Positions 35,666 through 56,220 are shown, numbered from the stretch's first letter. The stretch is DNA of 64,000 nt from Octopus vulgaris (GCA_951406725.2 OX597815.1:150102001-150166000), one strand, 5' to 3'. The notes: generated by a model from the sequence alone, not told the origin. A program made the numbers and translations.

Positions 35666-37186
35666 TCAAGTAATGTATGTTAGTACATATATGTCTATGA
35701 CAGTTCAATTCTGTATCAAATGTTTGCTTATAAATAATTGCGAAATTGTCTTTGTCTCTTTGTACGAATCTTATCCCGTTTGTATTAAGGTGTGTCTGTT
35801 TGTGGGGTTGTGAGTATCTTCCTGCATTCGTGTATAGTCAGTTTTGTTTTGCTTTTTGGTTTTTTTTATATATGTTTGTGCTGCTTTATTTCAAAGTTTT
35901 CCTGCTCAAAACTTACATCCCTTCTTAAATCCCCGCTGGAAATTTATTTATTCCACTTGATGACGTTTCACATTAGCTTCAGCTATTATTACGTTCCACC
36001 GCACCACCCTCTTCACTGCCTTCTACATTACATTTCTATCACAAATTTTCCTCTATACTTACAACACTTTATCAACAGCGCATATTCTTCAATATTATTT
36101 TTCAGATTCTTATTTCGTTCTCACCGATCCCATCAACAGCTTCAAAATTTCCTCGCTCCGATGAAAGGCAGCATCTTGTGGAATGCTTGAAATATGTCAA
36201 TCCCACTGGCACTGGCTTTTCTGGGTTTTAAGAAGTTATGGTGGAACACTTCCAGCAGTACACCACCAAACAGTCACTATAAAATTCTTTTTGAAGAGCT
36301 CGGGTTTAAGGATGGTTTATTTAATAAGGTGCTTTATTTTGGAACAACCACAGCGAAGAACGTATTTTTTATTATTGTACACATTCCACTTTTCATCGCA
36401 AGTTACAATAAAAAGCACTTTAATAAATACAAAATATATATTTTACAAAATAAATCATCTTAATAAATAAACCATCTTGCATTATTAGACAGACAATTTC
36501 AGATTTAAAAATATTTTTTTTTAGTTCAAAACTCTGCAAAAATCCGGTACAAATTGTTTACTTTTTACTCAACCTGATATACATGTTATAAGTATATGTG
36601 ATCGTGTGATGCCTTTAGTGAACCTAATAGATGCAGGAACTCGAAGTCGGTACCGCGTGTGATAGTGATTTAGTCAAATCTAAAACAGTATTTGATGAAT
36701 ATTACCTCCAGTTACTTTATGATTTTTATGGAATGAAAACAACTTGAGAAGAGTAGCTTCTTCGAGTTCTACTGTTAATTCTGCCATGTTGTTGCAAATG
36801 GCGCAGGACTGCCTGTTTGGTAAGAAGCTTGAATCCCAACTACATGGTTCTCAGTCGAATTCCGATCTGTGGTCTGCTCAGGTATGTAACCCGCTGTGCG
36901 GCTCCTCAGGTGTGTATCAGGCCAGCCAATGCATTCTGAGTGGATTTGATAGACGAAATGTGAAACAAGCCCATAGTACATATATTAATTTTTTAGTTTA
37001 TATATATACTAGCATTAAAGACCCTTCGTTGATGGGTCATAGTGCTAGTGCATGTATAAATGTGTATATATATGTGTAAATATTACATGTACATCTATAT
37101 ATATACATCTACACATAGAATACAAAATACAAAGTTATATCTTGATATCGCTAGTGATAACAATACTTAAAATATATAACAAACTG

Positions 37187-37476
37187 GAATTGTTAGCCCG
37201 TCTCTTGTAATTTCGATCAATTGTATCTTGTCCTCCCTCTTGTATAGAAGTGTGGCTTCAATCCAGCCTACCTCTACTTCTGGGGCGGCATTTAACTTTT
37301 TTTCCGGGACGGCCTACGTCCCAGATATAAAGGTAAAAATAAAATATTTCCACTTTGCAAGTTCGAGTCGAGTACTCCCTTGCACGCTCCGTTGACTATT
37401 ATGGCGAATTTACCGCCTCTGATTAGATATCTTTCATAGTCGCACCAATATTATTTTGGAAGGTGCTTTCCTCCAT
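37187..37476 (-). pseudogene. Decayed Tx1-type ORF1 fragment, directly next to the LINE tail
   Basis: Hand translation across frameshifts gives YLIRGGKFAII / NILFLPLYLGRRPSRK / APEVEVGWIEATLLYKREDKIQLIEI. These match YINRGKKYGTV / DIVLLPLYKGKRTSKI / PPNVEAEWIVAAVISGHEDEVDIL in the array ORF1s. Confidence 0.65.
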
Positions 37477-37724
37477 GTTGTTTTATTATTACCCACAAGG
37501 GGCGAACACAGATGGGACAATACATTCTGATGATGGGGTCAGACAAACGAATGGGTTTTTACAATAAATCGGGTTTAAAAATTTTCATGAATAACAATAA
37601 ATGGACAGAAATCGAGTGATAGGACAGACCGGAAGACATTACGGGTGGAGTGGGTGCGGGTTTAGCTCGGACCCCACGAGCCCCGCCTCCCCACTGATAC
37701 TTTTGGTTGCACTTGGTATTACAT

Positions 37725-40700
37725 TTATGTTGTAACTTTCATTCGCAACTTCCGTGCTACATCCTTCCATCGTTCTTCATACGCTCTCCTAGTCAGGCAT
37801 ATTCTCTCCAGCCCTATCTTCCTTTTCAGGTGAAAGATGAAATAATTCATCAAACCAGGGCCGGAGATGAACTTGCCTGACTGTAAACCTTTCATTCTCG
37901 TCTTCCATATCACCTCTTTCGCGATTGCTACTACAACGAGAAAACGAAACTTACCTTCATTCACGAGGAAATCCGGTGGGTCAATTTTTGTAATCGACTC
38001 AGTCGACAGCTGTACTCTTCGTGTACCTGACAACAGGTGTTCGGCATAAACCCACACCTCAGACACGTCCGGACAATGAACAATCGCGTGCGGGACGGTT
38101 TCCCTATCCCGCCCGCATCTTGGACATATCGGACTGTCTTGGCCACCGTGCCTTGCGAGTTTATCCCGAACAGGTAGAGCTCCTCTGTAGCATTGCCATG
38201 CCAGAGACTTCTGGAAGTTGTCCAGTGTCCTTGGCTCGAACGTACGTCGGAACAGACTGGCCAGCTGGTTATCGTCGAGACCTAGGGTTTCCCCCAAGGT
38301 ATCTTCACATTCCGCCTCTACCAACCCTCTATAGAAGAAAGTGGTGGAACCCCCACCGCAGGCGTTGCCCGAGCGACGGAATAGCAGGAGAGCCTTGCGA
38401 CACTCCGTGTACCAAGTACCAAGTTTCGATCTACGATTCAGCCAGGTTTCCCATCCACCGAAACTAGTGAACTTGGGAAACATCAGTTTTGCTAGCGAAG
38501 ACCACACCCGTTCACCATCCAGGTAGAGCCACAGATGTCTTAACCTCAGCGCATGTCTGCGCATCATCAGCCAAGGCATCCCTAGCCCACCCTTTAACGG
38601 TTGTTGACAGCAAGTAGAGCGTTTCACAAGTGGTTTCCCGCCCTTCCACAAGAAGTAGAAGAGCTGTCTTTCCAACTTGATCAACCACGAATCAGGGCAA
38701 GGAACGACGGAAAGGCGGTAGGTGATAACCGATGCGATAAACACATTGGCCACCTCCGCCCTCCCTTTCAGGGATAGCCACCGCCAAGACCAGGTCTTGG
38801 CTACTGCAGCCACCTTGCTCGTTACCTCGCCCCAATTCTTCTCTATTTGGAGGTCTGGACCGAACCAGACCCCTAGCAGTTTAATCGGACCCTCCGTCCA
38901 ACGTCCCACGACGCTGTCAGGAGGCATCGACTTGCCTCTCCAGGTGCCGAGTTGCAAGCCGACTGACTTTTCGCGATTAACTTTTGCTCCTGTCACCGTC
39001 TCGTACACCTCTATGGCCTTGCCTACTTTACATAGGTGGTCCATTTCGGTTACGATGATGGTGATGTCATCCGCGTACGCTGACACTGATTTTCCATTAC
39101 CTGGCTGTCTCGGGATGCCGCTCAGTTTTCGCAGTAATGGCTCAAGAGCCATCACGTACAAAAGCGGGGAGAGCGGACACCCTTGACGAACCGAGCGTTT
39201 GATTTTGAACGGCTTCGACAAGAAGCCGTTCACCCGAACTACCGAGTCGATGTTATCATAAATTTCGATAATCCACCTGAGGAATCCAAGGCTCAGCCCG
39301 AACTGTGCCAGGGCAGATACCAGGTAACGATGGTCGACCCTATCAAAAGCTTTAGATTGGTCTAAATGGACCAGTGCCCCACCCTTGCCAGAATCACTAT
39401 TAAACCCCTCTATAGTGTACCGCATTAGATGGAGATTATCCTGAATGGATCTGCCCGGAACGGCACATGTCTGTGCCCCTCCGATCAGACCATCCGCGAC
39501 ACGCGCCAATCTTTTCGATAGCACTTTGGCCAAAATCTTCAACTCTGTGTTTAGCAGAGTGATGGGCCTGAAATTATCAATGCACTCCCCTTGCTCGGGT
39601 CCTTTCTGACGAGAGTCACTACTCCCCGGCGCACAGATCTGGGTATAAGCCCGTTCTGCTGCCAGTTCGCGTAGACCTCCGCCAGTAGGTGCCCGAACAA
39701 GTCTGGCATACTCTTATATAACTCATAGGGTAGACCATCCAAACCCGGCGCCTTGCCCGCGCCGCAGTCCGCCATTGCCTCAACCACCTCCTCAGGCGTG
39801 ATTGGCCCTTCACAGCCCTCCGCATCTCGCCCCGATAAGCGCGGCAGACCGTCGAGTAGGTCCGTAAAGGCCCTCCTCCTATCCAGTCCGCCGCACTCAC
39901 CGAAAAGCTGAGCGAAGTGCTCCTGAAAGGCCTCACACATCTCCTCGGGTTCGTTTATCAACTCACCTTGTTGGTTCGTCAAAGATCGAATCGTGGCATC
40001 GTTACCATGCTGAGCTTCCACCACTCGGGCCCATCTCACGGCGTTGATTCCTTCACATCCCATATGACGGATTCTAGCCCTGACAATGCAGCCCATGTGT
40101 TTGGCCTCGAGGTGCTGGTTTAACACCAGTCTCTTGGCCGCCACCTGAGCCGCAGAGCCAGTTTTCATGGCTTCCTCTAATTCCTTAACTAGAGTAGTTT
40201 CCCTTCTAGCCTCTCTAGCCACTACTCCTATGCTATATCTAATAGACTCAAACTTGATGGCTCGTTTGAGGGCGTACCACCATTTGTTATTAATGATGGT
40301 ACCAGATAGTGCCCTCTGAATTATATCCCTAATCCGGTCTTTGTACTCCTTAATCGCCAAAAGGGACGTATTAAGTTTCCAGTAACCGGATCCTCTATTT
40401 TTAACCTTATCTATTTCAAGCTTACAAGTGACCATTTTATGATCACTGTAGCTGATCGGGTAAAACTGTGGACACTTAGCTATTTTACTGTCTACTTTTC
40501 TAATTAGTATTCTATCTAGATACGACCTGGAAGATCCGTCGCTGTTTGACCATGTCCACAATGGAGCGTTCGGAAATTCCAGCCTATAAGGATCTGCTAG
40601 CTCAAAGCGGCTTAGCAGTTCCATGAAGCCACTGTTGCCTTTTCTATCTGGACACGAGCCAACATAATCTACATCCGCTTTGCAAATTGTGTTAAAGTCT

Positions 40701-41119
40701 CCTAGCACCACTAATGAATGCGAAGTACCAAGAAAGTTTTCTAGTTCACGAAAATAATCACTTTGCCCTGTATGGTTGGGTGCGTAAATTGCAACCAGTC
40801 TGATAACTTTACCATTACTGAACGTCAAATCCATGACGACCAGCCTACCTTCTGGATCTGCAAAAATTAACTTTTTCTCAGAAACCCGGTTTCTTTTTAA
40901 TAGGACCAACACCCCACTCCCGCCTGTAGGACTGCCAGGAGAGAAAAAACTCTCGTAGCCGTCAAACAGCGGGAGTAGACCTCTTGGCCCCTCTAGCCGG
41001 GTTTCTGTAGCAACAATAACATCTAAATTACGCGACCTGATATCATGCAGGAAGCGACCTTGCTTCCAGCCTGCTCCCAGGCCGCGCACATTTAAACAAC
41101 CAACATAAATGTAATCCAT
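37725..41119 (-). CDS. Tx1 ORF2: APE endonuclease + reverse transcriptase + C-terminal zinc finger (one -1 frameshift at ~39587-39590)
   Basis: APE: LNVRG, ETRL, YAPN, GDFN, LDRI, SDH. RT: KAPGLDG, DQSKAFDRVDH, RQGCPLSP, YADD. Zinc finger: CPRC..ETVPHAIVHC. Adding one G to a G-run restores KGECIDNFRPITLLNTELKIL (about 1131 aa). Confidence 0.92.
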
Positions 41120-41128
41120 TACTTACCT

Positions 41129-42507
41129 TTATATCAGTGGTTCGGTTTTTTCTTCTTCTTCCTTCTCTTTTTCTGGGCCTCGTGGGGGAGTCTGACGTAG
41201 GCCCTCGAATATATGTGGAGATGTTACATCCAACCTAAGTGGGCCTACGTCATGGAAGAATTCTGACTTTATCCGCCCGTAATCCTTCCGGTCTATTTTG
41301 TAAAATTCCAAAGTCATTTTTTTTCTCTACTTTCTTCACATTGGCCATGGCTGCCAACACGTTTCCGAGTCTGCTATTTGATGCTTTTACGGCCATATAT
41401 GAGTTCATTGACTCTTTTTTCTTTTTTAAAATTACTCTGGGAGGGGTGGTTTCCGTTTTTCTTTTTTTTTTCCGATAATTTTTGCCCACCCCTCCCTATT
41501 TATCTTTTCTTCGCTCTTTTTTTCCTCCGCCGCTGGTTCTGCTGTTACCATCACCTCCACACCTTCAGTCTTCCCATCTGGGCCGTCTGACGCTGCTTCT
41601 GGTGACACATTGTCTTCTTTTCCTTTTGGCTTAGGTGCTTCCTGCGGTTTGGGTTGGGGCTGGCATTCCGCCCTTACATGCCCCTTCTTACCGCAGCCGA
41701 AGCACCTCGGCTTTCTGCCCTCTACGAAGACTGTGACTCTTTCATCTTCGCTTATCCTAAGAGTCTCTGGGATCTCTTCCAGGGTTTGTACTTCTGCTTG
41801 TATGGCTATTATTATCTTTTGCCCTTTCCAGAATTCTTCTTCTTCTACGGTGGCCTGGAGGATGTTTATTTTTTCCTCCAGGCCTACCATAACTGCTGCC
41901 ACTAGGACTTCGGCATCCGCTTCTGGCGGGATGTTGTTCATAGTGATTTTGGAAGTTCTCTTGCCTTTATACAGGGGTAGGAGAACAATATCCTCCGCTT
42001 TTATGGGTTCCATGGATAGCTTCTTCGCTACCTCCTCTGACGTGAATCTCACCTCCACTGTGCCGTATTTCTTCCCTCGATTGATATACGTAATTTTATC
42101 CATTATTGGCTTTAAGCAGTTTTCAATCTTTTTCTCCTCTATTTTTTGGATTGCTCTGTTTGTTATACTGAATGTCTTATAGATTATTCTCCTATTCGAA
42201 ATATCCTCCTGTATTTGGGCGTTTGAAGCCACGGTTACTTCCGTGCCCTCTTTTGACACACAGTCCGCATGTTTTCCCAGGTTGTCCACGTTAATTTTTT
42301 TAATTTTCTTCCCAGCCACTTCAGCGAATTTTTTTGCTGGAGTTGATGCTGGTACTGGTTTTACCATTTTCTTGGGCGACGCCGCCTCTTTTTCTTCGGC
42401 GACAGCGCCTCTTTTTTTCTTGGCGACAACGCCTCTTTTTTACTTGGCGACAACGCCGGGTATTCATCCTCGCTCGTCACGGGCGAATAAGTGATGGGGG
42501 ACTCCAT
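41129..42507 (-). CDS. Tx1 ORF1 nucleic-acid-binding protein (RRM-like region + CX2CX4HX4C knuckle), with homopolymer frameshifts
   Basis: VFVEGRKPRCFGCGKKGHVRAEC. The likely start is MESPITYSP at 42507. Frame changes fall in A-runs at ~42390, ~41465 and ~41320. Confidence 0.85.
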
Positions 42508-42739
42508 TTTGAACAAATGGCTTTAACAAGCCTTTGGTAATCTAAATTGATTGTAGTTTTCCCCCACTGAGGGGGGAACACCAACGCGAAGTCTTCGCGC
42601 GAAGGTTGACTTCGTCCGTTAGACAACAATGGACAAAAAAAGGTAGACCAACAGTATATAATAACAGAGATAAGTAGTATGAGAGCAAAAATATATATCA
42701 ACTTACTAATAACGCAAAAAATTGATTTCCGCCATGTGA

Positions 42740-44504
42740 TTTTATTACTACCCACAAGGGGCGAACATAGAGGGGACAATACAATCGGGGAACTTAAAAT
42801 AAGAAAGCGAAATGACAAGAAAAGGAAAAAATAAAAGTAAAAATGACAAATGAAAGAATATTTACAATGAGATGCAAATGCCCACTCGATCCCCGGAATC
42901 GAGAGGTTACATTTTCGTCACATATAGTTCACAATTTTTTTTTCCTTTTTCTCTTCTTTCTTCTCTCTCTCTCACAGTCTCAAACGTATTCCATGATAGT
43001 TTTCAATTCTCTAAAGTCTATCACTGAGCCCTCAGGCAGCCGCTCTTCATTCGAACACTCGTGTAGAAAAATTACACTCTCTCCGGCTGCTCTGAGGAAC
43101 TCAGCGACTCTTTCTTCGGGGATTAGAGCAGTCTCCTGCCACCGATCAGTCATCCTGTTGACCCACACATGTCCCTCCGTACTACATGTCAATTCCCTCA
43201 TTTCGGGGCTGAAATGGAAGGTTATTAACTTGTAGTAATCCTGCTTCCGTCCCACGCTCTCTCTCGTTTCTCCTTTCGGGCTCACCTCTTCCTTGCTCTC
43301 CTCCCTTTGCTTCTCTCTTTCTCTCCCTTTGCCCTCCTTTCCTTCTCCTTCCTTCTCTTGTCCTTTTGGTTCCTTGTCTGTTCTCTCCCTCTCTCGTGTT
43401 TTATGTTCCTCTTCCTTTTCCTCTTGTGTGCCGTCCCTTCTTTTCGTTTGATTCCGATCTCTCTCTTGTTTTTTTCCTGTTGTTTCCCTTTCCTTTTTCC
43501 TTTCCTGACTCTGCCTTGGTTCCACTTCTTTCCCTTCCCTTATTTCTTCTTCCTTCATTGACTTATTATTTCCCTTCTCTTGTTGTTTTGTCTCCCTTTC
43601 CATGCTTTCCCCTTCATCTACCGTATTCTTCTTTTCGAGTTCCTGCTCGCACTCCGCTACGAATTCGTATAACGGGCACTCTTTTTTAATGTGCCCCCTT
43701 GTCCCGCACAAGTAGCAGTTTGGCTTTCTTCCCTCTACAATTACACTGAGGGTTTTCTCATCTTCGATTTCTATTCTATAGGGGAACCTTTCAATGTCCT
43801 CTTTTGTGGCCATCAAACACAGTTCTACCCCATATCCTCTCCAGTTTATCACGTTGGACTCCTTAAAGGATTCCACCTCCACTTCCTCTTCTGCTGCTCC
43901 TAGAATAGCTGTTGCCAGCCATTCTGTTTTTACTTCTGGGGGTATATTCGGGATTTTAACCCGGACCCCTCTTCTTCCCTTGTATGAGGGCCACATTATA
44001 AATGTTTCCGCTCTTAGAACAGTGGTAGCCAGTGAGGCTGCAATTTCTTCCGTTGCATATCTCACCTCCACCGTACCAAATTTTTTCCTCTACTCACGTA
44101 GGTCGATTTATCCATTATGTCTCCCAGACATTTTTCGATCTCTGCTATCTCCACTCTTGCCAGTTTCTTTGTACTTTTGTCTGGGTTCTATATGTTACAG
44201 TCTTGTTTTCTTTGTCCTCTTTTGCTTTCGCGGGGATTAGCTTCACGCTATCACCCTCCCTTTTGAATAGCTTTTCATATTCTTTGAGTTTACTCTTCTC
44301 AAAGAAAACATCCTTCACGATTATTGCCGAATCATTATTATTCTTTCCCGTGACCCCCGCGTAAGTCGCCATGACTAGAGGGTCAATTCACCTTCTTCGG
44401 AAGGTTTCCACACGTGGAGGCAAACGCCTCGCGCGATATTAATCACTTTACACAACAAAATTTCAACGTCTAATCACAGATAACAACACGTATAGCTTGG
44501 AGCC
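42740..44504 (-). mobile_element. ORF1-only unit, family A
   Basis: Has its own 5' UTR, a single ORF1-like gene and the LINE-type tail at 42741-42780. No ORF2 sequence. Confidence 0.85.
42980..44372 (-). CDS. ORF1-like zinc-knuckle protein, family A (two frameshifts in A-runs near 44085 and 44175)
   Basis: MATYAGVT..IEKCLGDIMDKSTYVSRGKKFGTVEVRY..VIVEGRKPNCYLCGTRGHIKKEC, then an E/K/R-rich linker. Confidence 0.8.
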
Positions 44505-44510
44505 ATGTGA

Positions 44511-46239
44511 TTTCTTTATTACCCACTAAGGGGCTACGAAGAATGGCGGACATAACAAAACATGGGGACATAGAACATTATAATTAAACTTTATGAACAT
44601 GAATTGTTAAACGAAAAAAATGATAAAATGAAAGCGATACCAACGGCCCCGTCCGTCAGCATCACTTACCTGTCCTTTGTTTTTCATAGTCACTTGAATG
44701 TTCTTTGTCAATACGAATAAATTCCATATCCATTCTTACTCCGAAATACTCATCCATATTTTCCACGAATTCATCGCTCATTCTTATATCTTTCACCTCC
44801 CAATTCTCCCTTTCACACCTCCCCATAAACTCACCTATGTTCTTCTTTTCAATCACAGCATACCTAGTCTCTCCAACATCATACCATTTATACTCTTCCA
44901 TTAGACTTTTAACTTCTTTCTGTTCAGTCATAGTACAAATGTACGGCCTGGGTTCGATTTCAATCTCTTGTGTGTGTGTATTCTTTTTTTTCTTTTGTTT
45001 TCTTGTTGGGGGGGAGCGGGTGGGTTCAATGTCTGCATGGATAGGGTGGGACTCAGAGGGTGTGGGTGGTTTTGGGGTAGATTGGAGTTCCATATTATTT
45101 TCTTTTTTTCCACGTATTCTTCTCTTCCTCTTACTTCCAGCTTCCTTCCATTTCTGTGTATTCTCTTCCTCTGTTTCCTTCTCCTCTGGTTCGGAATCCA
45201 TTTCTTTCCCTGGGGGAGGGCAGAAGGCTCTTATGTGACCCCTCAGGCCACACTTGTAACAACGTGGAGCCCTGCCCTCCACCCACACTCTCATGATCAC
45301 TTCTCCCAGTCTGATGCTTTCCGTCAGGTCCACCAGTACCTCGGTCTCTGCCTGTACGTTCAGCTCCACTGTTACGCCTCTCCAGCCCTCGGACTTAACC
45401 GAGGCATGGAGAATATCCACTTCGTCCTCGTGGCCGCTGATCACAGCCGCCACAATCCATTCTGCCTCCACGTTTGGTGGCACTCCCTCCACCCTTATTC
45501 GTGTAATCCTCCTGTTTAAATACGTAGGTAACAGTGTTACCTTTTCCGACTTCACCGCCTTCGCTGCCATCTTCCTCGCTGCAGATTCACTTTTAAAGTG
45601 CACAACTACGGTCCCGTACTTGGATCCTCGAGTCAGAAAATTTATTTCCTCCTCAGTTCTTCGCAGGGCTTCCTCTATCCATTCCATGGTTACAACTTCT
45701 ACCCTCTTCCTTTCGTTTGCGAACACCCTGTAAACAATGGTCCTCTTATCATACCATTCTTTTCTCCTGGGTGTCGGTGACAGTTCCACCTCACCGCTTT
45801 CCCTTTTCATGTATTTCTGGTAACTTGGCAACTTGGCCATGTCGACCCCTTTCTCTTCCGCCTTCTTGGTTACACCGGCATAGGTATAACCCAGCTTCTG
45901 ATCCATTTTCCTTGCTGCCATTTCTAGCTCCTTCTCAGATGTAGACAAGTCTGATAAAGACTCGAAAACTCCAGCCTTTTCCTCCATCAGCTTCACTGCA
46001 ATTGCCTGTTCCAGTTCCTCATCTGTCGTGGACAAGTCTGTTAGAGACTCATAGTCCATTTCCTTCTGTCTGACAGACCGAAAACGGCCGCCAAAACAGA
46101 AAAAGTGTAACGCGCTGAACGAGCGAAACGCGAAACCGCGTCAACGCCGTTCAGAATTTCCACAACAACAACAACGCTTTTTGTTCTTTTTTACCGAATT
46201 TTCAGGAGCCGAAAAAAAAAACACGGAGCCGAAAAAACC
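44511..46239 (-). mobile_element. ORF1-only unit, family B (copy 1)
   Basis: Tail at 44511, a single ORF, and 5' end GGTTTTTTCGGCTCC. Confidence 0.88.
44662..46059 (-). CDS. ORF1-like zinc-knuckle protein, family B, intact 465 aa
   Basis: TYAGVTKK, RGSKYGTV, LLPTYLNRR, VWVEGRAPRCYKCGLRGHIRAFC. Confidence 0.88.
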   Translation of the reverse strand: MDYESLTDLSTTDEELEQAIAVKLMEEKAGVFESLSDLSTSEKELEMAARKMDQKLGYTYAGVTKKAEEKGVDMAKLPSYQKYMKRESGEVELSPTPRRKEWYDKRTIVYRVFANERKRVEVVTMEWIEEALRRTEEEINFLTRGSKYGTVVVHFKSESAARKMAAKAVKSEKVTLLPTYLNRRITRIRVEGVPPNVEAEWIVAAVISGHEDEVDILHASVKSEGWRGVTVELNVQAETEVLVDLTESIRLGEVIMRVWVEGRAPRCYKCGLRGHIRAFCPPPGKEMDSEPEEKETEEENTQKWKEAGSKRKRRIRGKKENNMELQSTPKPPTPSESHPIHADIEPTRSPPTRKQKKKKNTHTQEIEIEPRPYICTMTEQKEVKSLMEEYKWYDVGETRYAVIEKKNIGEFMGRCERENWEVKDIRMSDEFVENMDEYFGVRMDMEFIRIDKEHSSDYEKQRTGK

Positions 46240-46245
46240 ACGTGA

Positions 46246-47912
46246 TTTTTTATTACCCACAAGGGGCCAACGAAGAGGGGGACATTACAAGACATGGGGA
46301 CATGGAACATCACAATTACATATATATGAGCAAAATGGAATATGAAAATGATATATGAGAGCGATACCGACGGCCCCATCCGCCAGCATCACTTATCTGT
46401 CCTTCTTCACCCATTTTCAATTAGTATTCCTGTTTCACCTATCACAACATTCGTTTTTCTTTTAGCCCTCTCTATCCATTCATCTTTCATTTCCACTGAC
46501 TTCCAACACACACCCTCTTCCTCTAACCTTGTCGCCAATATACCCGTATCATCACTATCCACAGCCGTGTAGCTCCAATCTTCGTGTTCGTACCACTTGG
46601 TTAACACCAGTTTTTTAACGTTTTGTATGTCTTTCCCTTGTATAACACATAAAAAATGGGTCTTGGGACTTTCTTTGCTCTGTGTGTCTGTTTTTATTTT
46701 TCTTGTAGGCGGGGAGTGGGTGGAATTACTGTTTGCAGGGGAAGGATGGGACTCCAAGGGTATGGGTGGTGTCGGGGTGGGTTGGGGCTTCGCACAGTTT
46801 TTCTTTTCCTTCTTTTTCTCTTTGTTCCCGCTTCTTTCCACTCTTGTTGCATCTCCTCTTCTTCTGTCGTTTCCTTCTCTGTTTGTTTCTGTTTATTTTC
46901 TTCCTCTCCCGAGGCTTCCTCAACGCTTTCCTTTTCTTTTTCCTTTGGTGGGGGAGGGCAGTAGGCTCTTATGTGACCCCTTTGGCCACACTTGTAGCAC
47001 CTGGGCGCCCTACCCTCCACCCACACTCTCATAATAATATTTCCAGTTTTTATGCTGTCCGTAATCCTCTCTATAACATCCGCCTCCGCTTGAATGTTCA
47101 TAACTAGTGTGGCACCTCTCACGCCTTCATACTTCATAATGGCGTGGAGGATGTCCACTTTATCTTCATTTCCTTTTATAACCGCAGCCGTTATTAATTC
47201 GCCCTCTAGGTGTGGAGGTATTCCCTCCACCCTAATTCTAGTTGTCCGCCTATTCAGATACGAGGGTAACAAGTAAATCTTTTCTGTACTCACCACCTTG
47301 GCTGCTACATTCCTGGCTGCTTTTTCGCTTTTAAATTGCACCGTTATCGTTCCGTATTGTAATCCTTTTGTCATGTACACAATTTCCTCTCCCGTCTGCT
47401 TGAGAGCCTCTTCAATTGCTTCCATGTTGATTACTTCCATCTTTCTACCTCCATTCATAAATACTTTATATTTAATGGTTCTACGATGGAACCAGTCTCC
47501 GCGCCCTACTGGATGCAGCAGCTCGACTTCACCGTTCTCGTCCTCCTTCACAAACTCCTGGAGGCCCGCCAACTTAGCCAAGTCTATCTCTCTTTCCGTT
47601 GACTTCTTCGTTACACCTGCGTAGGTGCCTTCCATCTTTTTCACCGCCAACTCCTCCTCAGATGTCGATACTTCCGTCGAAATTTCAGAGTAAATTCTCC
47701 CTTCCATCTCCTCCGCTTGATGGAGGCGGCTCATAGTCGCCTCCGGCCGAGAAACGGCCTCCCGAACCGAAAAAGTGTAACGCGCAGAACCAGTGAGACG
47801 CGAAACCGCATCAACTATGTTCAAAATTTTACAACAACAACCATTCACTTTTTGTTCTTTTTTCTTTTTACCGAATTCCACAGAGAGCAAAAAACACAGA
47901 GCCGAAAAAACC
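46246..47912 (-). mobile_element. ORF1-only unit, family C (copy 1); ORF 47734-46407 with a frameshift at ~46800
   Basis: Near-identical to 47919-49585. Tail at 46246. Confidence 0.88.
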
Positions 47913-47918
47913 ACGTGA

Positions 47919-49585
47919 TTCTTTATTACCCACAAGGGGCCAACGAAGAGGGGGACATTACAAGACATGGGGACATGGAACATCACAATTACATATATAT
48001 GAGCAAAATGGAATATGAAAATGATATATGAGAGTGATACCGACGGCCCCATCCGCCAGCATCACTTATCTGTCCTTCTTCACCCATTTTCAATTAGTAT
48101 TCCTGTTTCACCTATCACAACATTCGTTTTTCTTTTAGCCCTCTCTATCCATTCATCTTTCATTTTCACTGACTTCCAACACACACCCTCTTCCTCAAAC
48201 CTTGTCGTCAATATACCCGTATCCTCACTATCCACAGCCGTGTAGCTCCAATCTTCGTGTTCGTACCACTTGGTTAACACCAGTTTTTTAACGTTTTGTA
48301 TGTCTTTCCCTTGTATAACACATAAAAAATGGGTCTTGGGACTTTCTTTGCTCTGTGTGTCTGTTTTTGTTTTTCTTGTAGGCGGGGAGTGGGTGGAATC
48401 ACTGTTTGCAGGGGAAGGATGGGACTCCAAGGGTATGGGTGGTGTCGGGGTGGGTTGGGGTTTCGCACAGTTTTTCTTTTTCTTTCTCTTTCTCTTTGTT
48501 CCCACTTCTTTCCACTCTTGTTGCATCTCCTCTTCTTCTGTCGTTTCCTTCTCTGTTTGTTTCTGTTTATTTTCTTCCTCTCCTGAGGCTTCCTCAACTC
48601 TTTCCTTTTCTTTTTCCTTTGGTGGGGGAGGGCAGTAGGCTCTTATGTGACCCCTTTGGCCACACTTGTAGCACCTGGGCGCCCTACCCTCCACCCACAC
48701 TCTCATAATAATATTTCCAGTTTTTATGCTGTCCGTAATCCTCTCTATAACATCCGCCTCCGCTTGAATGTTCATAACTAGTGTGGCACCTCTCACGCCT
48801 TCATACTTCATAATGGCGTGGAGGATGTCCACTTTATCTTCATTTCCTTTTATAACCGCAGCCGTTATTAATTCGCCCTCTAGGTGTGGAGGTATTCCCT
48901 CCACCCCAATTCTAGTTGTCCGCCTATTCAGATACGAGGGTAACAAGTAAATCTTTTCTGTACTCACCACCTTGGCTGCTACATTCCTGGCTGCTTTTTC
49001 GCTTTTAAATTGCACCGTTATCGTTCCGTATTGTAATCCTTTTGTCATGTACACAATTTCCTCTCCTGTCTGCTTGAGAGCCTCTTCAATTGCTTCCATG
49101 TTGATTACTTCCATCTTTCTACCTCCATTCATAAATACTTTATATTTAATGGTTCTACGATGGAACCAGTCTCCGCGCCCTACTGGATGCAGCAGCTCGA
49201 CTTCACCGTTCTCGTCCTCCTTCACAAACTCCTGGAGGCCCGCCAACTTAGCCAAGTCTATCTCTCTTTCCGTTGACTTCTTCGTTACACCTGCGTAGGT
49301 GCCTTCCATCTTTTTCACCGCCAACTCCTCCTCAGATGTCGATACTTCCGTCGAAATTTCAGAGTAAATTCTCCCTTCCATCTCCTCCGCTTGATGGAGG
49401 CGGCTCATAGTCGCCTCCGGCCGAAAACGGCCTCCCGAACCGAAAAAGTGTAACGCGCAGAACCAGTGAGACGCGAAACCGCATCAACTATGTTCAAAAT
49501 TTTACACCAACAACCATTCACTTTTTGTTCTTTTTTCTTTTTACCGAATTTCACAGAGAGCAAAAAACACAGAGCCGAAAAAACC
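47919..49585 (-). mobile_element. ORF1-only unit, family C (copy 2)
   Basis: Tail at 47919 and a single intact ORF. Confidence 0.88.
48080..49408 (-). CDS. ORF1-like zinc-knuckle protein, family C, intact 442 aa
   Basis: TYAGVTKK, KGLQYGTI, LLPSYLNRR, VWVEGRAPRCYKCGQRGHIRAYC. Confidence 0.88.
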   Translation of the reverse strand: MSRLHQAEEMEGRIYSEISTEVSTSEEELAVKKMEGTYAGVTKKSTEREIDLAKLAGLQEFVKEDENGEVELLHPVGRGDWFHRRTIKYKVFMNGGRKMEVINMEAIEEALKQTGEEIVYMTKGLQYGTITVQFKSEKAARNVAAKVVSTEKIYLLPSYLNRRTTRIGVEGIPPHLEGELITAAVIKGNEDKVDILHAIMKYEGVRGATLVMNIQAEADVIERITDSIKTGNIIMRVWVEGRAPRCYKCGQRGHIRAYCPPPPKEKEKERVEEASGEEENKQKQTEKETTEEEEMQQEWKEVGTKRKRKKKKNCAKPQPTPTPPIPLESHPSPANSDSTHSPPTRKTKTDTQSKESPKTHFLCVIQGKDIQNVKKLVLTKWYEHEDWSYTAVDSEDTGILTTRFEEEGVCWKSVKMKDEWIERAKRKTNVVIGETGILIENG

Positions 49586-49591
49586 ACGTGA

Positions 49592-51237
49592 TTCTTTATT
49601 ACCCACAAGGGGCCAACGAAGAGGGGGACATTACAAGACATGGGGACATGGAACATCACAATTACATATATATGAGCAAAATGGAATATGAAAATGATAT
49701 ATGAGAGTGATACCGACGGCCCCATCCGCCAGCATCACTTATCTGTCCTTCTTCACCCATTTCCAATTAGTATTCCTGTTTCACCTATCACAACATTCGT
49801 TTTTCTTTTAGCCCTCTCTATCCATTCATCTTTCATTTCCACTGACTTCCAACACACACCCTCTTCCTCAAACCTTGTCGCCAATATACCCGTATCATCA
49901 CTATCCACAGCCGTGTAGCTCCAATCTTCGTGTTCGTACCACTTGGTTAACACCAGTTTTTTAACGTTTTGTATGTCTTTCCCATGTATAACACATAAAA
50001 AATGGGTCTTGGGACTTTCTTTGCTCTGTGTGTCTGTTTTTATTTTTCTTGTAGGCGAGGAGTGGGTGGAATTACTGTTTGCAGGGGAAGGATGGGACTC
50101 CAAGGGTATGGGTGGTGTCGGGGTGGGTTGGGGCTTCGCACAGTTTTTCTTTTTCCTTCTTTTTCTCTTTGTTCCCGCTTCTTTCCACTCTTGTTGCATC
50201 TCCTCTTCTTCTGTCGTTTCCTTCTCTGTTTGTTTCTGTTTATTTTCTTCCTCTCCCGAGGCTTCCTCAACGCTTTCCTTTTCTTTTTCCTTTGGTGGGG
50301 AGGGCAGTAGGCTCTTATGTGACCCCTTTGGCCACACTTGTAGCACCTGGGCGCCCTACCCTCCACCCACACTCTCATAATAATATTTCCAGTTTTTATG
50401 CTGTCCGTAATCCTCTCTATAACATCCGCCTCCGCTTGAACGTTCATAACTAGTGTGGCACCTCTCACGCCTTCATACTTCATAATGGCGTGGAGGATGT
50501 CCACTTTATCTTCATTTCCTTTTATAACCGCAGCCGTTATTAATTCGCCCTCTAGGTGTGGAGGTATTCCCTCCACCTAATTCTAGTTGTCCGCCTATTC
50601 AGATACGAGGGTAACAAGTAAATCTTTTCTGTACTCACCACCTTGGCTGCTACATTCCTGGCTGCTTTTTCGCTTTTAAATTGCACCGTTATCGTTCCGT
50701 ATTGTAATCCTTTTGTCATGTACACAATTTCCTCTCCTGTCTGCTTGAGAGCCTCTTCAATTGCTTCCATGTTGATTACTTCCATCTTTCTACCTCCATT
50801 CATAAATACTTTATATTTAATGGTTCTACGATGGAACCAGTCTCCGCGCCCTACTGGATGCAGCAGCTCGACTTCACCGTTCTCGTCCTCCTTCACAAAC
50901 TCCTGGAGGCCCGCCAACTTAGCCAAGTCTATCTCTTCCGTTGACTTCTTCGTTACACCTGCGTAGGTGCCTTCCATCTTTTTCACCGCCAACTCCTCCT
51001 CAGATGTCGATACTTCCGTCGAAATTTCAGAGTAAATTCTCCCTTCCATCTCCTCCGCTTGATGGAGGCGGCTCATAGTCGCCTCCGGCCGAGAAACGGC
51101 CTCCCGAACCGAAAAAGTGTAACGCGCAGAACCAGTGAGACGCGAAACCGCATCAACTATGTTCAAAATTTTACAACAACAACCATTCACTTTTTGTTCT
51201 TTTTTCTTTTTACCGAATTTCAGGAGCCGAAAAAACC
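49592..51237 (-). mobile_element. ORF1-only unit, family C (copy 3); ORF 51076-49753 with frameshifts at ~50575 and ~50300
   Basis: Near-identical to C1 and C2, but the 5' tip is B-like. Confidence 0.85.
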
Positions 51238-51240
51238 GTA

Positions 51241-51609
51241 TTTCTTTATTACCCACTAAGGGGCTACGAAGAGCGGCGGACATAACAAAACATGGGGACA
51301 TAGAACATTATAATTAAACTATATGAACATGAAGTGTTAAACGAAAAAATGATAAAATGAAAGCGATACCAACGGCCCCGTCCGTCAGCATCACTTACCT
51401 GTCCTTTGTTTTTCATAGTCACTTGAATGTTCTTTGCCAATACGAATAAATTCCATATCCATTCTTACTCCGAAATACTCATTCATATTTTCCACGAATT
51501 CATCGCTCATTCTTATATCTTTCACCTCCCAATTCTCCCTTTCACACCTCCCCATAAACTCACCTATGTTCTTTTTTTCAATCACAGCATACCTAGTCTC
51601 TCCAACATC
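51241..51609 (-). mobile_element. 5'-truncated family B unit (3' ~370 bp only)
   Basis: B tail plus the ORF C-terminus (..EKKNIGEFMGRCERE..KQRTGK*). Breaks at ~51609 directly into the next tail. Confidence 0.85.
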
Positions 51610-51610
51610 T

Positions 51611-53376
51611 CTTTTTTTTATTACCCACTAAGGGGCTACGAAGAATGGCGGACATAACAAAACATGGGGACATAGAACATTATAATTAAACTTTATGAAA
51701 ATGAATTGTTAAACGAAAAAATGATTAAATGAAAGCGATACCAACGGCCCCGTCCGTCAGCATCACTTACCTGTCCTTTGTTTTTCATAGTCACTTGAAT
51801 GTTCTTTGCCAATACGAATAAATTCCATATCCATTCTTACTCCGAAATACTCATCCATATTTTCCACGAATTCATCGCTCATTCTTATATCTTTCACCTC
51901 CCAATTCTCGCATTCACACATCACCATAAAGTCACCTATGTTCTTCTTTTCAATCACAGCATACCTAGTCTCACCAACATCATACCATTTATACTCTTCC
52001 ATTAAACTTTTAACTTCTTTCTGTTCAGTCATAGTACAAATGTACGGCCTGGGTTCGATTTCAATCTCTTGTGTGTGTGTATTCTTTTTTTTTCTTTTGT
52101 TTTCTTGTTGGGGGGAGCGGGTGGGTTCAATGTCTGCATGGATAGGGTGGGACTCAGAGGGTGTGGGAGGTTTTGGGGTAGATTGGAGTTCCATATTATT
52201 TTCTTTTTTTCCACATATTCTTCTCTTCCTCTTACTTCCAGCTTCCTTCCATTTCTGTGTATTCTCTTCCTCTGTTTCCTTCTCCTCTGGTTTCTGCTTC
52301 TCTCTCTCTGGTTCGGGATCCATTTCTTTCCCTGGGGGAGGGCAGAAGGCTCTTATGTGACCCCTCAGGCCACACTTGTAACAACGTGGAGCCCTGCCCT
52401 CCACCCACACTCTCATGATCACTTCTCCCAGTCTGATGCTTTCCGTCAGGTCCACCAGTACCTCGGTCTCTGCCTGTACGTTCAGCTCCACTGTTACGCC
52501 TCTCCAGCCCTCGGACTTAACCGAGGCATGGAGAATATCCACTTCGTCCTCGTGGCCGCTGATCACAGCCGCCACAATCCATTCTGCCTCCACGTTTGGT
52601 GGCACTCCCTCCACCCTTATTCGTGTAATCCTCCTGTTTAAATACGTAGGTAACAGTGTTACCTTTTCCGACTTCACCGCCTTCGCTGCCATCTTCCTCG
52701 CTGCAGATTCACTTTTAAAGTGCACAACTACGGTCCCGTACTTGGATCCTCGAGTCAGAAAATTTATTTCCTCCTCAGTTCTTCGCAGGGCCTCCTCTAT
52801 CCATTCCATGGATACAACTTCTACCCTCTTCCTTTCGTTTGCGCACACCCTGTAAACAATGGTCCTCTTGTCATACCATTCCTTTCTCCTGGGTGTCGGT
52901 GATAGTTCCACCTCACCGCTTTCCTTTTTCATGTATTTCTGGTAACTTGGCAACTTGGCCATGTCGACCCCTTTCTCTTCCGCCTTCTTGGTTACACCGG
53001 CATAGGTATAACCCAGCTTGTCTTCCAATTTCCTTGCTGCCATTTCTAGCTCCTTCTCAGACGTAGGCAAGTCTGATAAAGACTCGAAAACTCCAGCCTT
53101 TTCCTCCATCAGCTTCACTGCAATTGCCTGTTCCAGTTCCTCATCCGTCGTGGACAAGTCTGTTAGAGACTCATAGTCCATTTCCTTCTGTCTGACAGAC
53201 CGAAAACGGCCGCCAAAACAGAAAAAGTGTAACGCGCTGAACGAGCGAAACGCGAAACCGCGTCAACGCCGTTCAGAATTTCCACAACAACAACAACGCT
53301 TTTTGTTCTTTTTTACCGAATTTTCAGGAGCCGAAAAAAAAAAAAAAAAAAAAAAAAACACGGAGCCGAAAAAACC
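51611..53376 (-). mobile_element. ORF1-only unit, family B (copy 2)
   Basis: Tail at ~51611 and an intact ORF at 51763-53181. Confidence 0.88.
51763..53181 (-). CDS. ORF1-like zinc-knuckle protein, family B, 472 aa
   Basis: Near-identical to 44662-46059, with a 7-aa insertion (EREKQKP). Confidence 0.88.
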   Translation of the reverse strand: MDYESLTDLSTTDEELEQAIAVKLMEEKAGVFESLSDLPTSEKELEMAARKLEDKLGYTYAGVTKKAEEKGVDMAKLPSYQKYMKKESGEVELSPTPRRKEWYDKRTIVYRVCANERKRVEVVSMEWIEEALRRTEEEINFLTRGSKYGTVVVHFKSESAARKMAAKAVKSEKVTLLPTYLNRRITRIRVEGVPPNVEAEWIVAAVISGHEDEVDILHASVKSEGWRGVTVELNVQAETEVLVDLTESIRLGEVIMRVWVEGRAPRCYKCGLRGHIRAFCPPPGKEMDPEPEREKQKPEEKETEEENTQKWKEAGSKRKRRICGKKENNMELQSTPKPPTPSESHPIHADIEPTRSPQQENKRKKKNTHTQEIEIEPRPYICTMTEQKEVKSLMEEYKWYDVGETRYAVIEKKNIGDFMVMCECENWEVKDIRMSDEFVENMDEYFGVRMDMEFIRIGKEHSSDYEKQRTGK

Positions 53377-53379
53377 GTA

Positions 53380-55142
53380 TTTCTTTATTACCCACTAAGG
53401 GGCTACGAAGAGCGGCGGACATAACAAAACATGGGGACATAGAACATTATAATTAAACTATATGAACATGAAGTGTTAAACGAAAAAATGATAAAATGAA
53501 AGCGATACCAACGGCCCCGTCCGTCAGCATCACTTACCTGTCCTTTGTTTTTCATAGTCACTTGAATGTTCTTTGCCAATACGAATAAATTCCATATCCA
53601 TTCTTACTCCGAAATACTCATTCATATTTTCCACGAATTCATCGCTCATTCTTATATCTTTCACCTCCCAATTCTCCCTTTCACACCTCCCCATAAACTC
53701 ACCTATGTTCTTTTTTTCAATCACAGCATACCTAGTCTCTCCAACATCATACCGTTTATACTCTTCCATTAGACTTTTAACTTCCTCTGTTCAGTCATAG
53801 TACAAATGTACGGCCTGGGTTCGATTTCAATCTCTTGTGTGTGTGTATTCTTTTTTTCTTTTGTTTTCTTGTTGGGGGGGAGCGGGTGGGTTCAATGTCT
53901 GCATGGATAGGGTGGGACTCAGAGGGTGTGGGAGGTTTTGGGGTAGATTGGAGATCCATATTATTTTCTTTTTTTCCACATATTCTTCTCTTCCTCTTAC
54001 TTCCAGCTTCCTTCCATTTCTGTGTATTCTCTTCCTCTGTTTCCTTCTCCTCTGGTTTCTGCTTCTCTCTCTCTGGTTCGGGATCCATTTCTTTCCCTGG
54101 GGGAGGGCAGAAGGCTCTTATGTGACCCCTCAGGCCACACTTGTAACAACGTGGAGCCCTGCCCTCCACCCACACTCTCATGATCACTTCTCCCAGTCTG
54201 ATGCTTTCCGTCAGGTCCACCAGTACCTCGGTCTCTGCCTGTACGTTCAGCTCCACTGTTACGCCTCTCCAGCCCTCGGACTTAACCGAGGCATGGAGAA
54301 TATCCACTTCGTCCTCGTGGCCGCTGATCACAGCCGCCACAATCCATTCTGCCTCCACGTTTGGTGGCACTCCCTCCACCCTTATTCGTGTAATCCTCCT
54401 GTTTAAATACGTAGGTAACAGTGTTACCTTTTCCGACTTCACCGCCTTCGCTGCCATCTTCCTCGCTGCAGATTCACTTTTAAAGTGCACAACTACGGTC
54501 CCGTACTTGGATCCTCGAGTCAGAAAATTTATTTCCTCCTCAGTTCTTCGCAGGGCCTCCTCTATCCATTCCATGGATACAACTTCTACCCTCTTCCTTT
54601 CGTTTGCGCACACCCTGTAAACAATGGTCCTCTTGTCATACCATTCCTTTCTCCTGGGTGTCGGTGATAGTTCCACCTCACCGCTTTCCTTTTTCATGTA
54701 TTTCTGGTAACTTGGCAACTTGGCCATGTCGACCCCTTTCTCTTCCGCCTTCTTGGTTACACCGGCATAGGTATAACCCAGCTTGTCTTCCAATTTCCTT
54801 GCTGCCATTTCTAGCTCCTTCTCAGACGTAGGCAAGTCTGATAAAGACTCGAAAACTCCAGCCTTTTCCTCCATCAGCTTCACTGCAATTGCCTGTTCCA
54901 GTTCCTCATCCGTCGTGGACAAGTCTGTTAGAGACTCATAGTCCATTTCCTTCTGTCTGACAGACCGAAAACGGCCGCCAAAACAGAAAAAGTGTAACGC
55001 GCTGAACGAGCGAAACGCGAAACCGCGTCAACGCCGTTCAGAATTTCCACAACAACAACAACGCTTTTTGTTCTTTTTTACCGAATTTTCAGGAGCCGAA
55101 AAAAAAAAAAAAAAAAAAAAAAAACACGGAGCCGAAAAAACC
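53380..55142 (-). mobile_element. ORF1-only unit, family B (copy 3); ORF 54946-53530 with frameshifts at ~53850 and ~53785
   Basis: Near-identical to B2. Its 5' end is the 5' end of the whole array. Confidence 0.88.
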
Positions 55143-56220
55143 GACCTTTTTCCTCTACATTCTATACTTTATAGACAATAGACTTTTCTTTAATTTCATT
55201 TTTTATTATCCATCTGGATTATTCCATTTCTGCACACTAATTTTATTTTTAATTTATTCCCATTCATGTGAAACCACTTATTCAAGTTCAAGTCATTGAT
55301 GCAATTTTATACCAATTGCTATTTTTACTTTTGTTATGTTACGATTATATTATACTTTAGTTTGATTTTGATTATTACTTACTACATAAAACTCAATTGT
55401 TATTATTATTTTTATTGTTAAAGTGAAATCATCTGACATAAAATAGAGAAGTGTATTTGTTTCGCTTTTAACACGTAATACTGAAAAATGGAGAAGATAT
55501 GATATTGCTACGGGCTCGCTCTAGGCAAGAAGTTGAACATTTTTTTGCCCATGAAACTACATGGACCCTAAGTAAGGCATGTGTAAACTTTGAATGAAAT
55601 TGGTTGTTTAGTTCTCAAGTTTTAGGGAAACACACAGACAGACAGACAGCCATTCTCAGTTTTATATGTATAAAGATATATATATACATATATATATGTA
55701 GATATATGCATGCATATATATATACTTATATGTATATATATATATATGTATGTATGTATGTATGTATTGTATATATATCCACATATGTATACATATACTG
55801 TATATGTATATACTTATATACATGCATATACTGTAAATATATATATATTAATCAACCGACAACTGGTGTTGGTGTGTTTGCGTCACCGTAGACTAACATT
55901 TCTGCAATAGAGACGGATATTGTTGGTTTCTAAAACCAAAAGATAAATAAATAAATAAATAAATGCTGAGCCCAATTCGTTCAGCTAAAACTCTTCATGG
56001 CGATGCACCAGCAATTGTCTTAATTCAATGGCTGAAACAAGTATGAAATATATGCTTTTACTCTAAAATTAGATTACTAAACAGAAGGTGAAACTATGTG
56101 GAGCAGTGATTTGTTATAATGTATTTTCTTCTACGGAGCCATACGATAATCATGGATATAATATATGCAAGCGAACATAACGATGAAAACCTTTGAATTG
56201 AAATGTTAGTTAAATGTTTA

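What the first reader, a model, noticed from the sequence alone, without database searches (positions are those of the whole stretch)
42725..53390. Junction grammar suggests RT template-jumping or self-5'-end targeting rather than independent insertion
Seen (sense strand): tail AATAAA(G)AAA, then a short linker, then GG starting the next unit. Linkers are TCACAT|GGCGG (42733), TCACAT|GGCTC (44504), TCACGT|GGTTTTTT (46239, 47912, 49585) and TAC|GGTTTTTT (51237, 53376). The array's own 3' end is followed by CAACAT|GGAG (37480). One tail (51611) joins directly onto a 5'-truncated unit. No host DNA or TSD lies between units. The same TCACRTGG appears at junctions between unrelated 5' UTRs (T, A, B, C). 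Established: many Tx1 endonucleases are sequence-specific, and non-LTR RTs can jump end-to-end between templates. Inference: either CACRTGG at element 5' ends is the insertion target, or the RT serially jumps to new RNAs that share the tail.
Basis: partly seen in the sequence, partly recalled or inferred. Interest (0 to 1): 0.72.

Follow-up and report, generated by a model that had tools for sequence, protein, structure and literature searches.

The report
Retrotransposon chains rebuild their landing site
The short spacers between these stacked jumping genes are copies of one landing site inside another transposon, and each new copy likely lands in the site that the previous copy duplicated, a known trick here used by a LINE and several partner families that keep only its RNA-binding gene.

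Summary
The array (9 units, minus strand, 55142-37488) splits a ~1.04-kb Helitron-like repeat at GAAC|ACATGGAGGAAAGCAC. The 'linkers' are the upstream tail's last bases plus a 5-16 bp target-site duplication, so each unit's head is again a target. Natural experiment: in Helitrons carrying the ACCTGG allele, 11 of 11 scorable adjacent unit heads start ACCTG, against 2 of 34 in ACATGG Helitrons. Heads match the 3' neighbour, not the nearest relative (61 vs 7; 61 neither), and drift stepwise (18 vs 2). Host Helitrons are old (3.9% apart), units young (mostly 0.1-0.5%), so segmental duplication is rejected. Self-5'-end targeting is supported in this refined form; template jumping is not the main route but may explain about 13 of 238 junctions. 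No age gradient was found, and arrays are longer than independent hits predict. Tandem growth through duplicated targets is known (R1, SINEU-3); a Helitron target, ORF1-only partners and a one-way order were not found in print. The scan reported this system before elsewhere in this genome.

The parts
55146..55676 (-). Left half (positions 1-532) of a ~1044-bp non-autonomous Helitron-like repeat; the 8 bp ATTTGAAC before the site are missing
   Evidence: blastn to an empty copy, 92%; empty-site sequence
53387..55142 (-). ORF1-only unit C (5'-most); head GGTCGG-T6
   Evidence: ORF 53795-54946
51620..53378 (-). ORF1-only unit C, 472-aa ORF with CCHC knuckle; head ACGG; tail variant ending AAAAAAAAGAG
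51248..51609 (-). 5'-truncated unit C (starts at about position 1396); upstream tail joins it directly, with GATG shared with the intact C context
49598..51239 (-). ORF1-only unit B; head ACGG, the same rare variant as the two C units upstream (3 of 4 such heads in the whole sample are in this array)
47925..49589 (-). ORF1-only unit B, 442-aa ORF with zinc knuckle; head ACGTGG
46252..47916 (-). ORF1-only unit B; head ACGTGG
44518..46243 (-). ORF1-only unit C, 465-aa ORF; head ACGTGG, shared with the two B units upstream
42747..44508 (-). ORF1-only unit A (zinc knuckle); head ACATGGCTCC
43197..43618 (-). Cluster of 35 private A>G changes and no other private change in unit A; likely RNA editing fixed by retrotransposition
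   Evidence: not checked against reads
42726..42737 (-). Head of T, ACATGGCGGAAA: 5' copy of the target site (one difference from the 3' copy)
37488..42725 (-). Autonomous-type L1/Tx1-like LINE 'T': ORF1 (41432-42367), APE endonuclease (39551-41119), RT and zf-RVT (37725-39425); ORF2 is split in this copy
   Evidence: intact 1131-aa ORF2 in 19 of 48 full-length copies elsewhere
37463..37478 (-). Target site, right part ACATGGAGGAAAGCAC (3' copy of the duplication)
37009..37478 (-). Right half (541-1044) of the Helitron-like repeat, ending in a hairpin and CTAG|T

Best explanation
The array lies at one fixed site inside an old Helitron-like repeat, and its linkers are target-site duplications, so it likely grew at its 5' end by separate target-primed insertions, each landing in the site that the previous one duplicated. 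Shown: the site, the duplication, copying of the local allele into unit heads, stepwise inheritance of heads, and the one-way order 5'-[B/C/D]-[B']-[A]-[T]-Helitron-3'. Inferred: T's endonuclease nicks at GAAC|ACATGG; the top strand is cut 5-16 nt downstream; the cDNA joins that overhang, so a head is part target and part RNA. Also inferred: the last few bases of each RNA pair with the nicked strand, which decides where it can dock; B/C/D RNAs carry a Helitron-derived leader that deletes 8 bp of the site, so A and T can rarely land upstream of them; T supplies RT and endonuclease in trans to the ORF1-only families. Local tandem duplication probably lengthens some arrays afterwards.
For: Target: 1196 genome matches to the site pattern, 11 of the first 100 filled; 63 of 86 parsed arrays or solo units end on the Helitron right half and 55 start on the left half. 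TSD: solo T copies flanked by ACATGGAGGAAA on both sides; a truncated T carries the full 16-mer and has another T upstream; off-target T copies show 11-34 bp duplications. Allele test: 11 of 11 scorable heads (14 loci fetched, 3 unscorable) start ACCTG in ACCTGG Helitrons vs 2 of 34 in ACATGG Helitrons, p=8e-9; 8 of 8 for heads already buried under another unit, p=4e-7; their nearest relatives elsewhere mostly carry other heads. A private Helitron variant ATCTGG passes to T and then A at one locus. Head equals 3' neighbour vs nearest relative: 26 vs 1 for A/T, 35 vs 6 for B/C/D. Cross-family neighbours share a head in 7 of 20 (0.33 expected, rare heads only) and 26 of 46 (7.8 expected). Head equals previous head vs original allele: 18 vs 2. 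Order: 4 of 238 junctions run backwards; A never precedes B/C/D/B' (0 of 53) while C or B' precedes A 10 times. A/T-led 5' junctions keep TTGAAC in 16 of 16, B/C/D-led in 1 of 33. Five head-less A/T units inside Helitrons have nothing upstream. Independent events: host Helitrons 3.9% apart and not clustered by occupancy; no block copying at 0.3% (2 of 216 vs 1.6). Precedent: R1 tandem arrays formed by insertion into the 5' TSD (PMC2718515, passages).
Against: No age gradient along arrays (3' copy more mutated in 13, 5' copy in 18, 19 ties), though copies are so young that power is low. Arrays are over-long for equal-rate independent hits: mean at least 3.2 units at 11 filled sites on contig C1 vs 1.2 expected. 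61 of 129 informative heads match neither neighbour nor relative, so duplication alone does not write the head. 13 junctions join a tail straight to a truncated unit with no TSD (one search lists 14; one has a head and was misclassed). A mild excess of similar adjacent pairs appears at the 0.5% threshold (21 vs 9.4). 64 of 188 units have their nearest relative in their own array. No RNA ends, nick sites or allelic series were observed.
Confidence: 0.8

Rival explanations
1. Serial RT template jumping: one priming event at the Helitron nick, then the RT jumps from each RNA 5' end to the tail of another RNA, building the chain in one reaction.
For: R2 proteins make longer products by jumping to further template RNAs in vitro (PMC11371274, passages). 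T is usually the 3'-most unit (45 of 63), as cis preference predicts. No age gradient; over-long arrays; 13 tail-to-truncated junctions, including window 51610 with a 4-nt GATG overlap.
Against: Jumping does not copy DNA from the target between units, yet heads copy the local Helitron allele (11 of 11 vs 2 of 34) and the neighbour across families. The order is strictly asymmetric. All 13 direct junctions are C onto C or B', which share heads, and the neighbour's head often persists across the truncated unit (window: CGG, CGG, truncated, CGG); this fits insertion into a resident unit with deletion of its 5' part. One C-onto-truncated-T junction exists outside a Helitron.
Confidence: 0.07
2. One-event iterative priming: after each cDNA copies the same top-strand overhang back to the nick, a new RNA primes there before ligation, so one visit yields many TSD-separated units.
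For: Explains TSD-type linkers together with over-long arrays and no age gradient.
Against: All heads should then copy the original allele; they follow the previous head in 18 cases vs 2 and drift stepwise in long arrays.
Confidence: 0.07
3. Arrays are copied as blocks: segmental duplication, Helitron transposition of filled copies, read-through multimer RNA, or unequal crossing-over.
For: Some runs of near-identical units (14 C on contig C2); one identical Helitron pair 35 kb apart; mild pair excess at 0.5%.
Against: Filled and empty Helitrons intermingle (19 label changes vs 18.0 shuffled; the tree is weakly resolved) and are about ten times more diverged than their cargo. 124 of 188 units have a closer or equal relative in another array. 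2 of 216 adjacent pairs recur elsewhere vs 1.6 by chance. Array compositions differ at every locus.
Confidence: 0.05

Closest known systems
R1 tandem arrays in Drosophila 28S rDNA (Stage and Eickbush 2009, PMC2718515; passages)
   Same: APE-type element at a fixed site; 14-bp TSD separates tandem copies; new copies insert into the 5' TSD; melanogaster-type R1 carries upstream target sequence on its RNA, deletes 9 bp and makes upstream duplications, much as B/C/D here delete 8 bp and trap Helitron-left fragments (18 of 238 junctions).
   Different: Different clade and target (rDNA vs a dispersed Helitron-like repeat); one family, not six; the deleting R1 type has few or no tandems, whereas B/C/D keep stacking on their own heads.
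Crocodilian Tx1-Mar and SINEU-3 in Mariner-N4_AMi; Xenopus Tx1L in Tx1D (PMC4494074; passages and part 3 of 5)
   Same: Tx1-clade elements aimed at a fixed region of a non-autonomous DNA transposon; a non-autonomous partner shares the target; tandem SINEU-3 copies sandwich a 16-bp TSD and are read as sequential insertions.
   Different: Target here is Helitron-like; partners are 1.7-kb ORF1-coding elements, not SINEs; chains reach 15 units in my sample, with a one-way family order; copies are very young.
HAL1 (half-L1) (PMC5753468; passages)
   Same: Non-autonomous elements that encode only ORF1p.
   Different: No target specificity or arrays are mentioned for HAL1 in the passages seen; here five families (A, B, B', C, D), 33-38% identical to T ORF1, share a tail and a site.
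HeT-A/TART/TAHRE telomeric arrays (PMC5537684; passages)
   Same: Head-to-tail mixed arrays of gag-only and RT-bearing elements that grow at the 5' end.
   Different: Those are added to chromosome ends; these are interstitial, nick-primed inside a repeat, TSD-separated and present at more than 100 loci.

Membership tests
L1 group non-LTR retrotransposon (T) | ORF2 with APE endonuclease, RT and C-terminal zinc motif, behind an ORF1 | tested here: met
   PF03372, PF00078, PF13966; best solved relative human L1 ORF2p, E=6.7e-65; 1131-aa ORF2 in 19 of 48 copies
Tx1 clade | RT phylogeny places it with Tx1/Keno/Kibi/Koshi | not tested
   No named Tx1 references were returned; the only named hit of 25 is a fungal protein labelled TX1 at 26% identity
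Tx1 clade | ORF1 with CCHC zinc knuckle (feature recalled) | tested here: met
   CX2CX4HX4C in T and all five partner ORF1s
Tx1 clade | Target-sequence preference | tested here: met
   33 of 50 T tails on the Helitron site, 10 on another unit, 7 elsewhere, one of them a different element
TSD-driven tandem array (R1/SINEU-3 type) | Units separated by a copy of the target duplication | tested here: met
   Allele test 11 of 11 vs 2 of 34; heads are partly RNA-derived, so not pure copies
TSD-driven tandem array (R1/SINEU-3 type) | No insertion upstream of units that lack the TSD | tested here: inconclusive
   Holds for 5 of 5 head-less A/T units in Helitrons; 13 C tails sit directly on truncated C/B' units
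TSD-driven tandem array (R1/SINEU-3 type) | 3' units older than 5' units | tested here: inconclusive
   13 vs 18, p=0.47; median private changes 0-1.9 per kb
Template-jump concatemer | Tail joined to the next RNA's own 5' end, independent of target and neighbour | tested here: not met
   Heads follow neighbour and local allele
HAL1-like ORF1-only element (A, B, B', C, D) | Single ORF homologous to partner ORF1, no RT, shared 3' tail | tested here: met
   33-38% identity to T ORF1; no RT or EN domain in the window's partner ORFs; shared tail
HAL1-like ORF1-only element (A, B, B', C, D) | Mobilised in trans by T | not testable with these tools
   Inferred from shared tail and site
Non-autonomous Helitron (target) | 5' TC, 3' hairpin then CTAG, inserted between A and T | tested here: met
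   CTAG|T in 23 of 30 loci (6 not parsed, 1 CTACT); A|TC in 9 of 10 parsed 5' ends of 20 empty copies; 3' stem-loop folds
Non-autonomous Helitron (target) | An autonomous Rep/helicase partner with the same ends | not tested
   Not searched

The most novel reading that the evidence does not exclude
The target is a heritable, evolving sequence owned by the array: each insertion rewrites the site from target DNA and its own RNA leader, and each RNA's last few read-through bases act as an inherited docking guide. That would sort six families into a one-way hierarchy in which ORF1-only hyperparasites cap the array and shut the autonomous LINE out, with array heads used several times more often than virgin Helitron sites. 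Support: 13 of 19 C units docked on ACATGG have a nearest relative docked the same way (base rate 19 of 119); recurring tail variants join recurring micro-matches such as GCTC and GAT; a leader variant AGAGG occurs at 16 of 49 filled and 0 of 18 empty sites.
Probability: 0.35. Interest if true: 0.75.

Novelty: new variant of a known kind. Interest (0 to 1): 0.5.

Why it matters
More than 100 very young loci and 19 intact ORF2 copies make top-strand cutting and second-strand priming in an APE-type LINE directly testable, a step still argued over (PMC2718515). A site-preferring LINE aimed at a harmless dispersed repeat, carrying 1.7-kb coding passengers in trans, is also of interest for targeted gene insertion. 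The core mechanism, tandem growth through a duplicated target, is already in print.

Tried and rejected
Age gradient by private substitutions: no signal, low power. T with upstream units vs solo T: no difference, p=0.38. Allelic state in other individuals: contigs of 4 public runs break inside the Helitron and bridge nothing. No RNA holder listed, so start sites and 3' ends were not seen. Protein search gave no named Tx1 reference. Treating GG as a cap-derived 5' end was rejected: empty sites place the boundary before ACATGG. Overwriting of the 3' junction by RNA was rejected as a rule: ACCTGG and ATCTGG alleles survive at 3' junctions, although one off-target copy shows extra CAT that is not in its target. 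Hitch-hiking on Helitron transposition was rejected. My docking classes were crude (many B/C heads fell into 'other'); only the ACATGG class is reliable. Unit counts for the Poisson test were read by hand. Segments on contigs C1, C3, C4 and C5 that did not touch split four arrays into two records each, so the 86 records are about 81 loci. Samples were chosen by C or T tails, so family frequencies are biased.

Full report
Observation. All junction motifs are at the stated coordinates. The array is larger than the interval given: on the minus strand C, C, truncated C, B, B, B, C, A, T from 55142 to 37488. T has ORF1, an APE endonuclease and RT; A, B and C carry one zinc-knuckle ORF, 33-38% identical to T ORF1. 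'Octopus-type genome' is a recalled resemblance, echoed by earlier notes, and was not tested.

The flanks are a target. The 21 bases behind the last tail match 557 places in the genome. Twenty of the first 30 are empty and read TGTAGAGAAAAAAG(AAG)ATTTGAAC|ACATGGAGGAAAGCACC inside a 1044-bp repeat with 5' A|TC, a 3' hairpin and CTAG|T, the marks of a non-autonomous Helitron (marks recalled). The window's two flanks are its halves. A wider pattern gives 1196 sites, 11 of the first 100 filled. Of 86 parsed arrays or solo units, 63 end on the right half and 55 begin on the left half; most others run off the fetched DNA, and about ten are off-target.

What follows a tail. Of 114 C tails read (164 in the genome), 69 lead to a B/C/D head, 16 to an A/T head, 14 to a clipped or truncated unit, 5 to a Helitron-left fragment plus head, 8 to the Helitron right half, 1 to a SINE and 1 to unique DNA. 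Of 50 T tails read (56 in the genome), 33 lead to the Helitron, 10 to a unit and 7 elsewhere. The generic tail has 92,125 matches; all of the first 30 loci are a SINE, so it cannot be used for this test.

The linker is a target-site duplication. Solo T copies read GATTTGAAC ACATGGAGGAAA|T...tail|ACATGGAGGAAAGCAC. A truncated T has the full 16-mer before it and another T upstream. Off-target T copies have duplications of 11-34 bp, three of them at ACATGG- or ACACGT-like sites. TC, CA or T before AC depend on the upstream family. The true boundary therefore lies before ACATGG or ACG, not before GG.

Decisive test. Fourteen arrays sit in Helitrons with the ACCTGG allele. All 14 were fetched. In 11 of 11 scorable cases the adjacent A/T head starts ACCTG (three unscorable: one C-type unit, two parse failures), against 2 of 34 in ACATGG Helitrons (p=8e-9). 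For heads already buried under another unit it is 8 of 8 (p=4e-7). Nearest relatives of those units mostly bear other heads. Several heads are chimeric, ACCTG from the target then TCCG, TCTG or GCTCC, so RNA contributes the rest. Across the main sample, heads equal the 3' neighbour rather than the nearest relative in 26 vs 1 (A/T; 30 neither) and 35 vs 6 (B/C/D; 31 neither). Cross-family neighbours share heads far above permutation (7 of 20 vs 0.33; 26 of 46 vs 7.8). Where the previous head differs from the original allele, the new head follows the previous head 18 times and the allele twice (13 neither). In the window, the rare CGG head appears three times in a row across C and B and survives the truncated unit.

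Order. Only 4 of 238 unit-to-unit junctions break the order [B/C/D]-[B']-[A]-[T]. A/T-led 5' junctions keep the Helitron's TTGAAC (16 of 16); B/C/D-led ones lose it (32 of 33) and often carry a variant absent from empty sites (16 of 49 filled vs 0 of 18), which suggests an RNA leader copied in. Docking class is heritable in C. I infer a ratchet set by pairing of RNA 3' ends with the nicked site.

Independence. Host Helitron halves are a median 3.9% from their nearest neighbour and filled and empty copies intermingle (weakly resolved tree). Units are mostly 0.1-0.5% from relatives, and for 124 of 188 the closest or an equally close relative is in another array. Adjacent pairs recur elsewhere in 2 of 216 vs 1.6 expected, with a mild excess at a looser cut-off (21 vs 9.4). 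Block duplication is rejected as the general cause.

Against. There is no age gradient. Arrays are too long for equal-rate hits, so heads must be hot, or local duplication or occasional jumps add units. Thirteen tails join truncated units directly; these are the remaining candidates for jumping, including window 51610. Public contigs did not resolve alleles; no RNA holder was listed.

Literature. R1 tandem arrays separated by the 14-bp TSD and ascribed to insertion into that TSD, and the 9-bp-deleting R1 type, are in PMC2718515 (passages). Tx1-Mar, SINEU-3 tandems sandwiching a TSD, and Tx1L in Tx1D are in PMC4494074 (passages and part 3 of 5). Template jumping by R2 is in PMC11371274 (passages), HAL1 in PMC5753468 (passages), telomeric arrays in PMC5537684 (passages), occasional tandem Utopia in PMC4640811 (passages). 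An octopus repeat annotation lists 13 young L1-Tx1 families and does not use the word 'nested' in its main text (PMC13282606, passages; supplements not seen). Searches (listings) found no L1/Tx1 element aimed at a Helitron; Repbase and subscription journals were not searchable. Earlier scan notes e1-8663012 and e1-8663684 describe the same system elsewhere in this genome; I saw them after reaching this reading.

Verdict. A real and well-supported feature; a new variant of a known kind. Serial insertion into a regenerated target, 0.8; template jumping as the main route, 0.07. Interest 0.5.

Noticed in passing
window 43197-43618 (unit A); also C8_L061 unit B and six others: Clusters of sense-strand A>G changes (35 here, 46 in one B copy), 5' G in 3% vs 31% background, neighbours unaffected; looks like ADAR hyper-editing fixed in the genome. 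ADAR neighbour preference is recalled.
   Followed up: partly
L001-L030: A tRNA-type SINE shares the tail (most of 92,125 matches). 12 of 32 tails run into an internal SINE position, giving 184-bp tandems; others show 7-14 bp apparent TSDs in 10 of 13 scored.
   Followed up: partly
G000 genome-wide: Target allele bias: 100 tails on ACATGG vs 14 on ACCTGG, although 25 vs about 62 of the first 89 empty sites carry these alleles.
   Followed up: partly
L035:3142-5817: An inverted C fragment sits inside a C unit at position 814-819, forming a 0.9-kb palindrome; its tail docks on ACCTCGTGG.
   Followed up: no
L179, L180, L182, L183, L233: Truncated or clipped insertions delete 40-320 bp of the Helitron upstream of the site.
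   Followed up: partly
all junctions: Each tail holds AATAAA or a variant and the next head is GU/U-rich, like a downstream polyadenylation element; the next unit may supply the 3'-end signal of the one before it (inference from sequence).
   Followed up: no
L031, L043, L061 5' units: A-runs in the 5' UTR converted to G-rich runs, again A>G.
   Followed up: no
L168 and L169: Identical filled Helitron halves 35 kb apart: a local duplication or assembly redundancy.
   Followed up: no
L054, L049, L051: C arrays outside Helitrons, one ending in a SINE.
   Followed up: no
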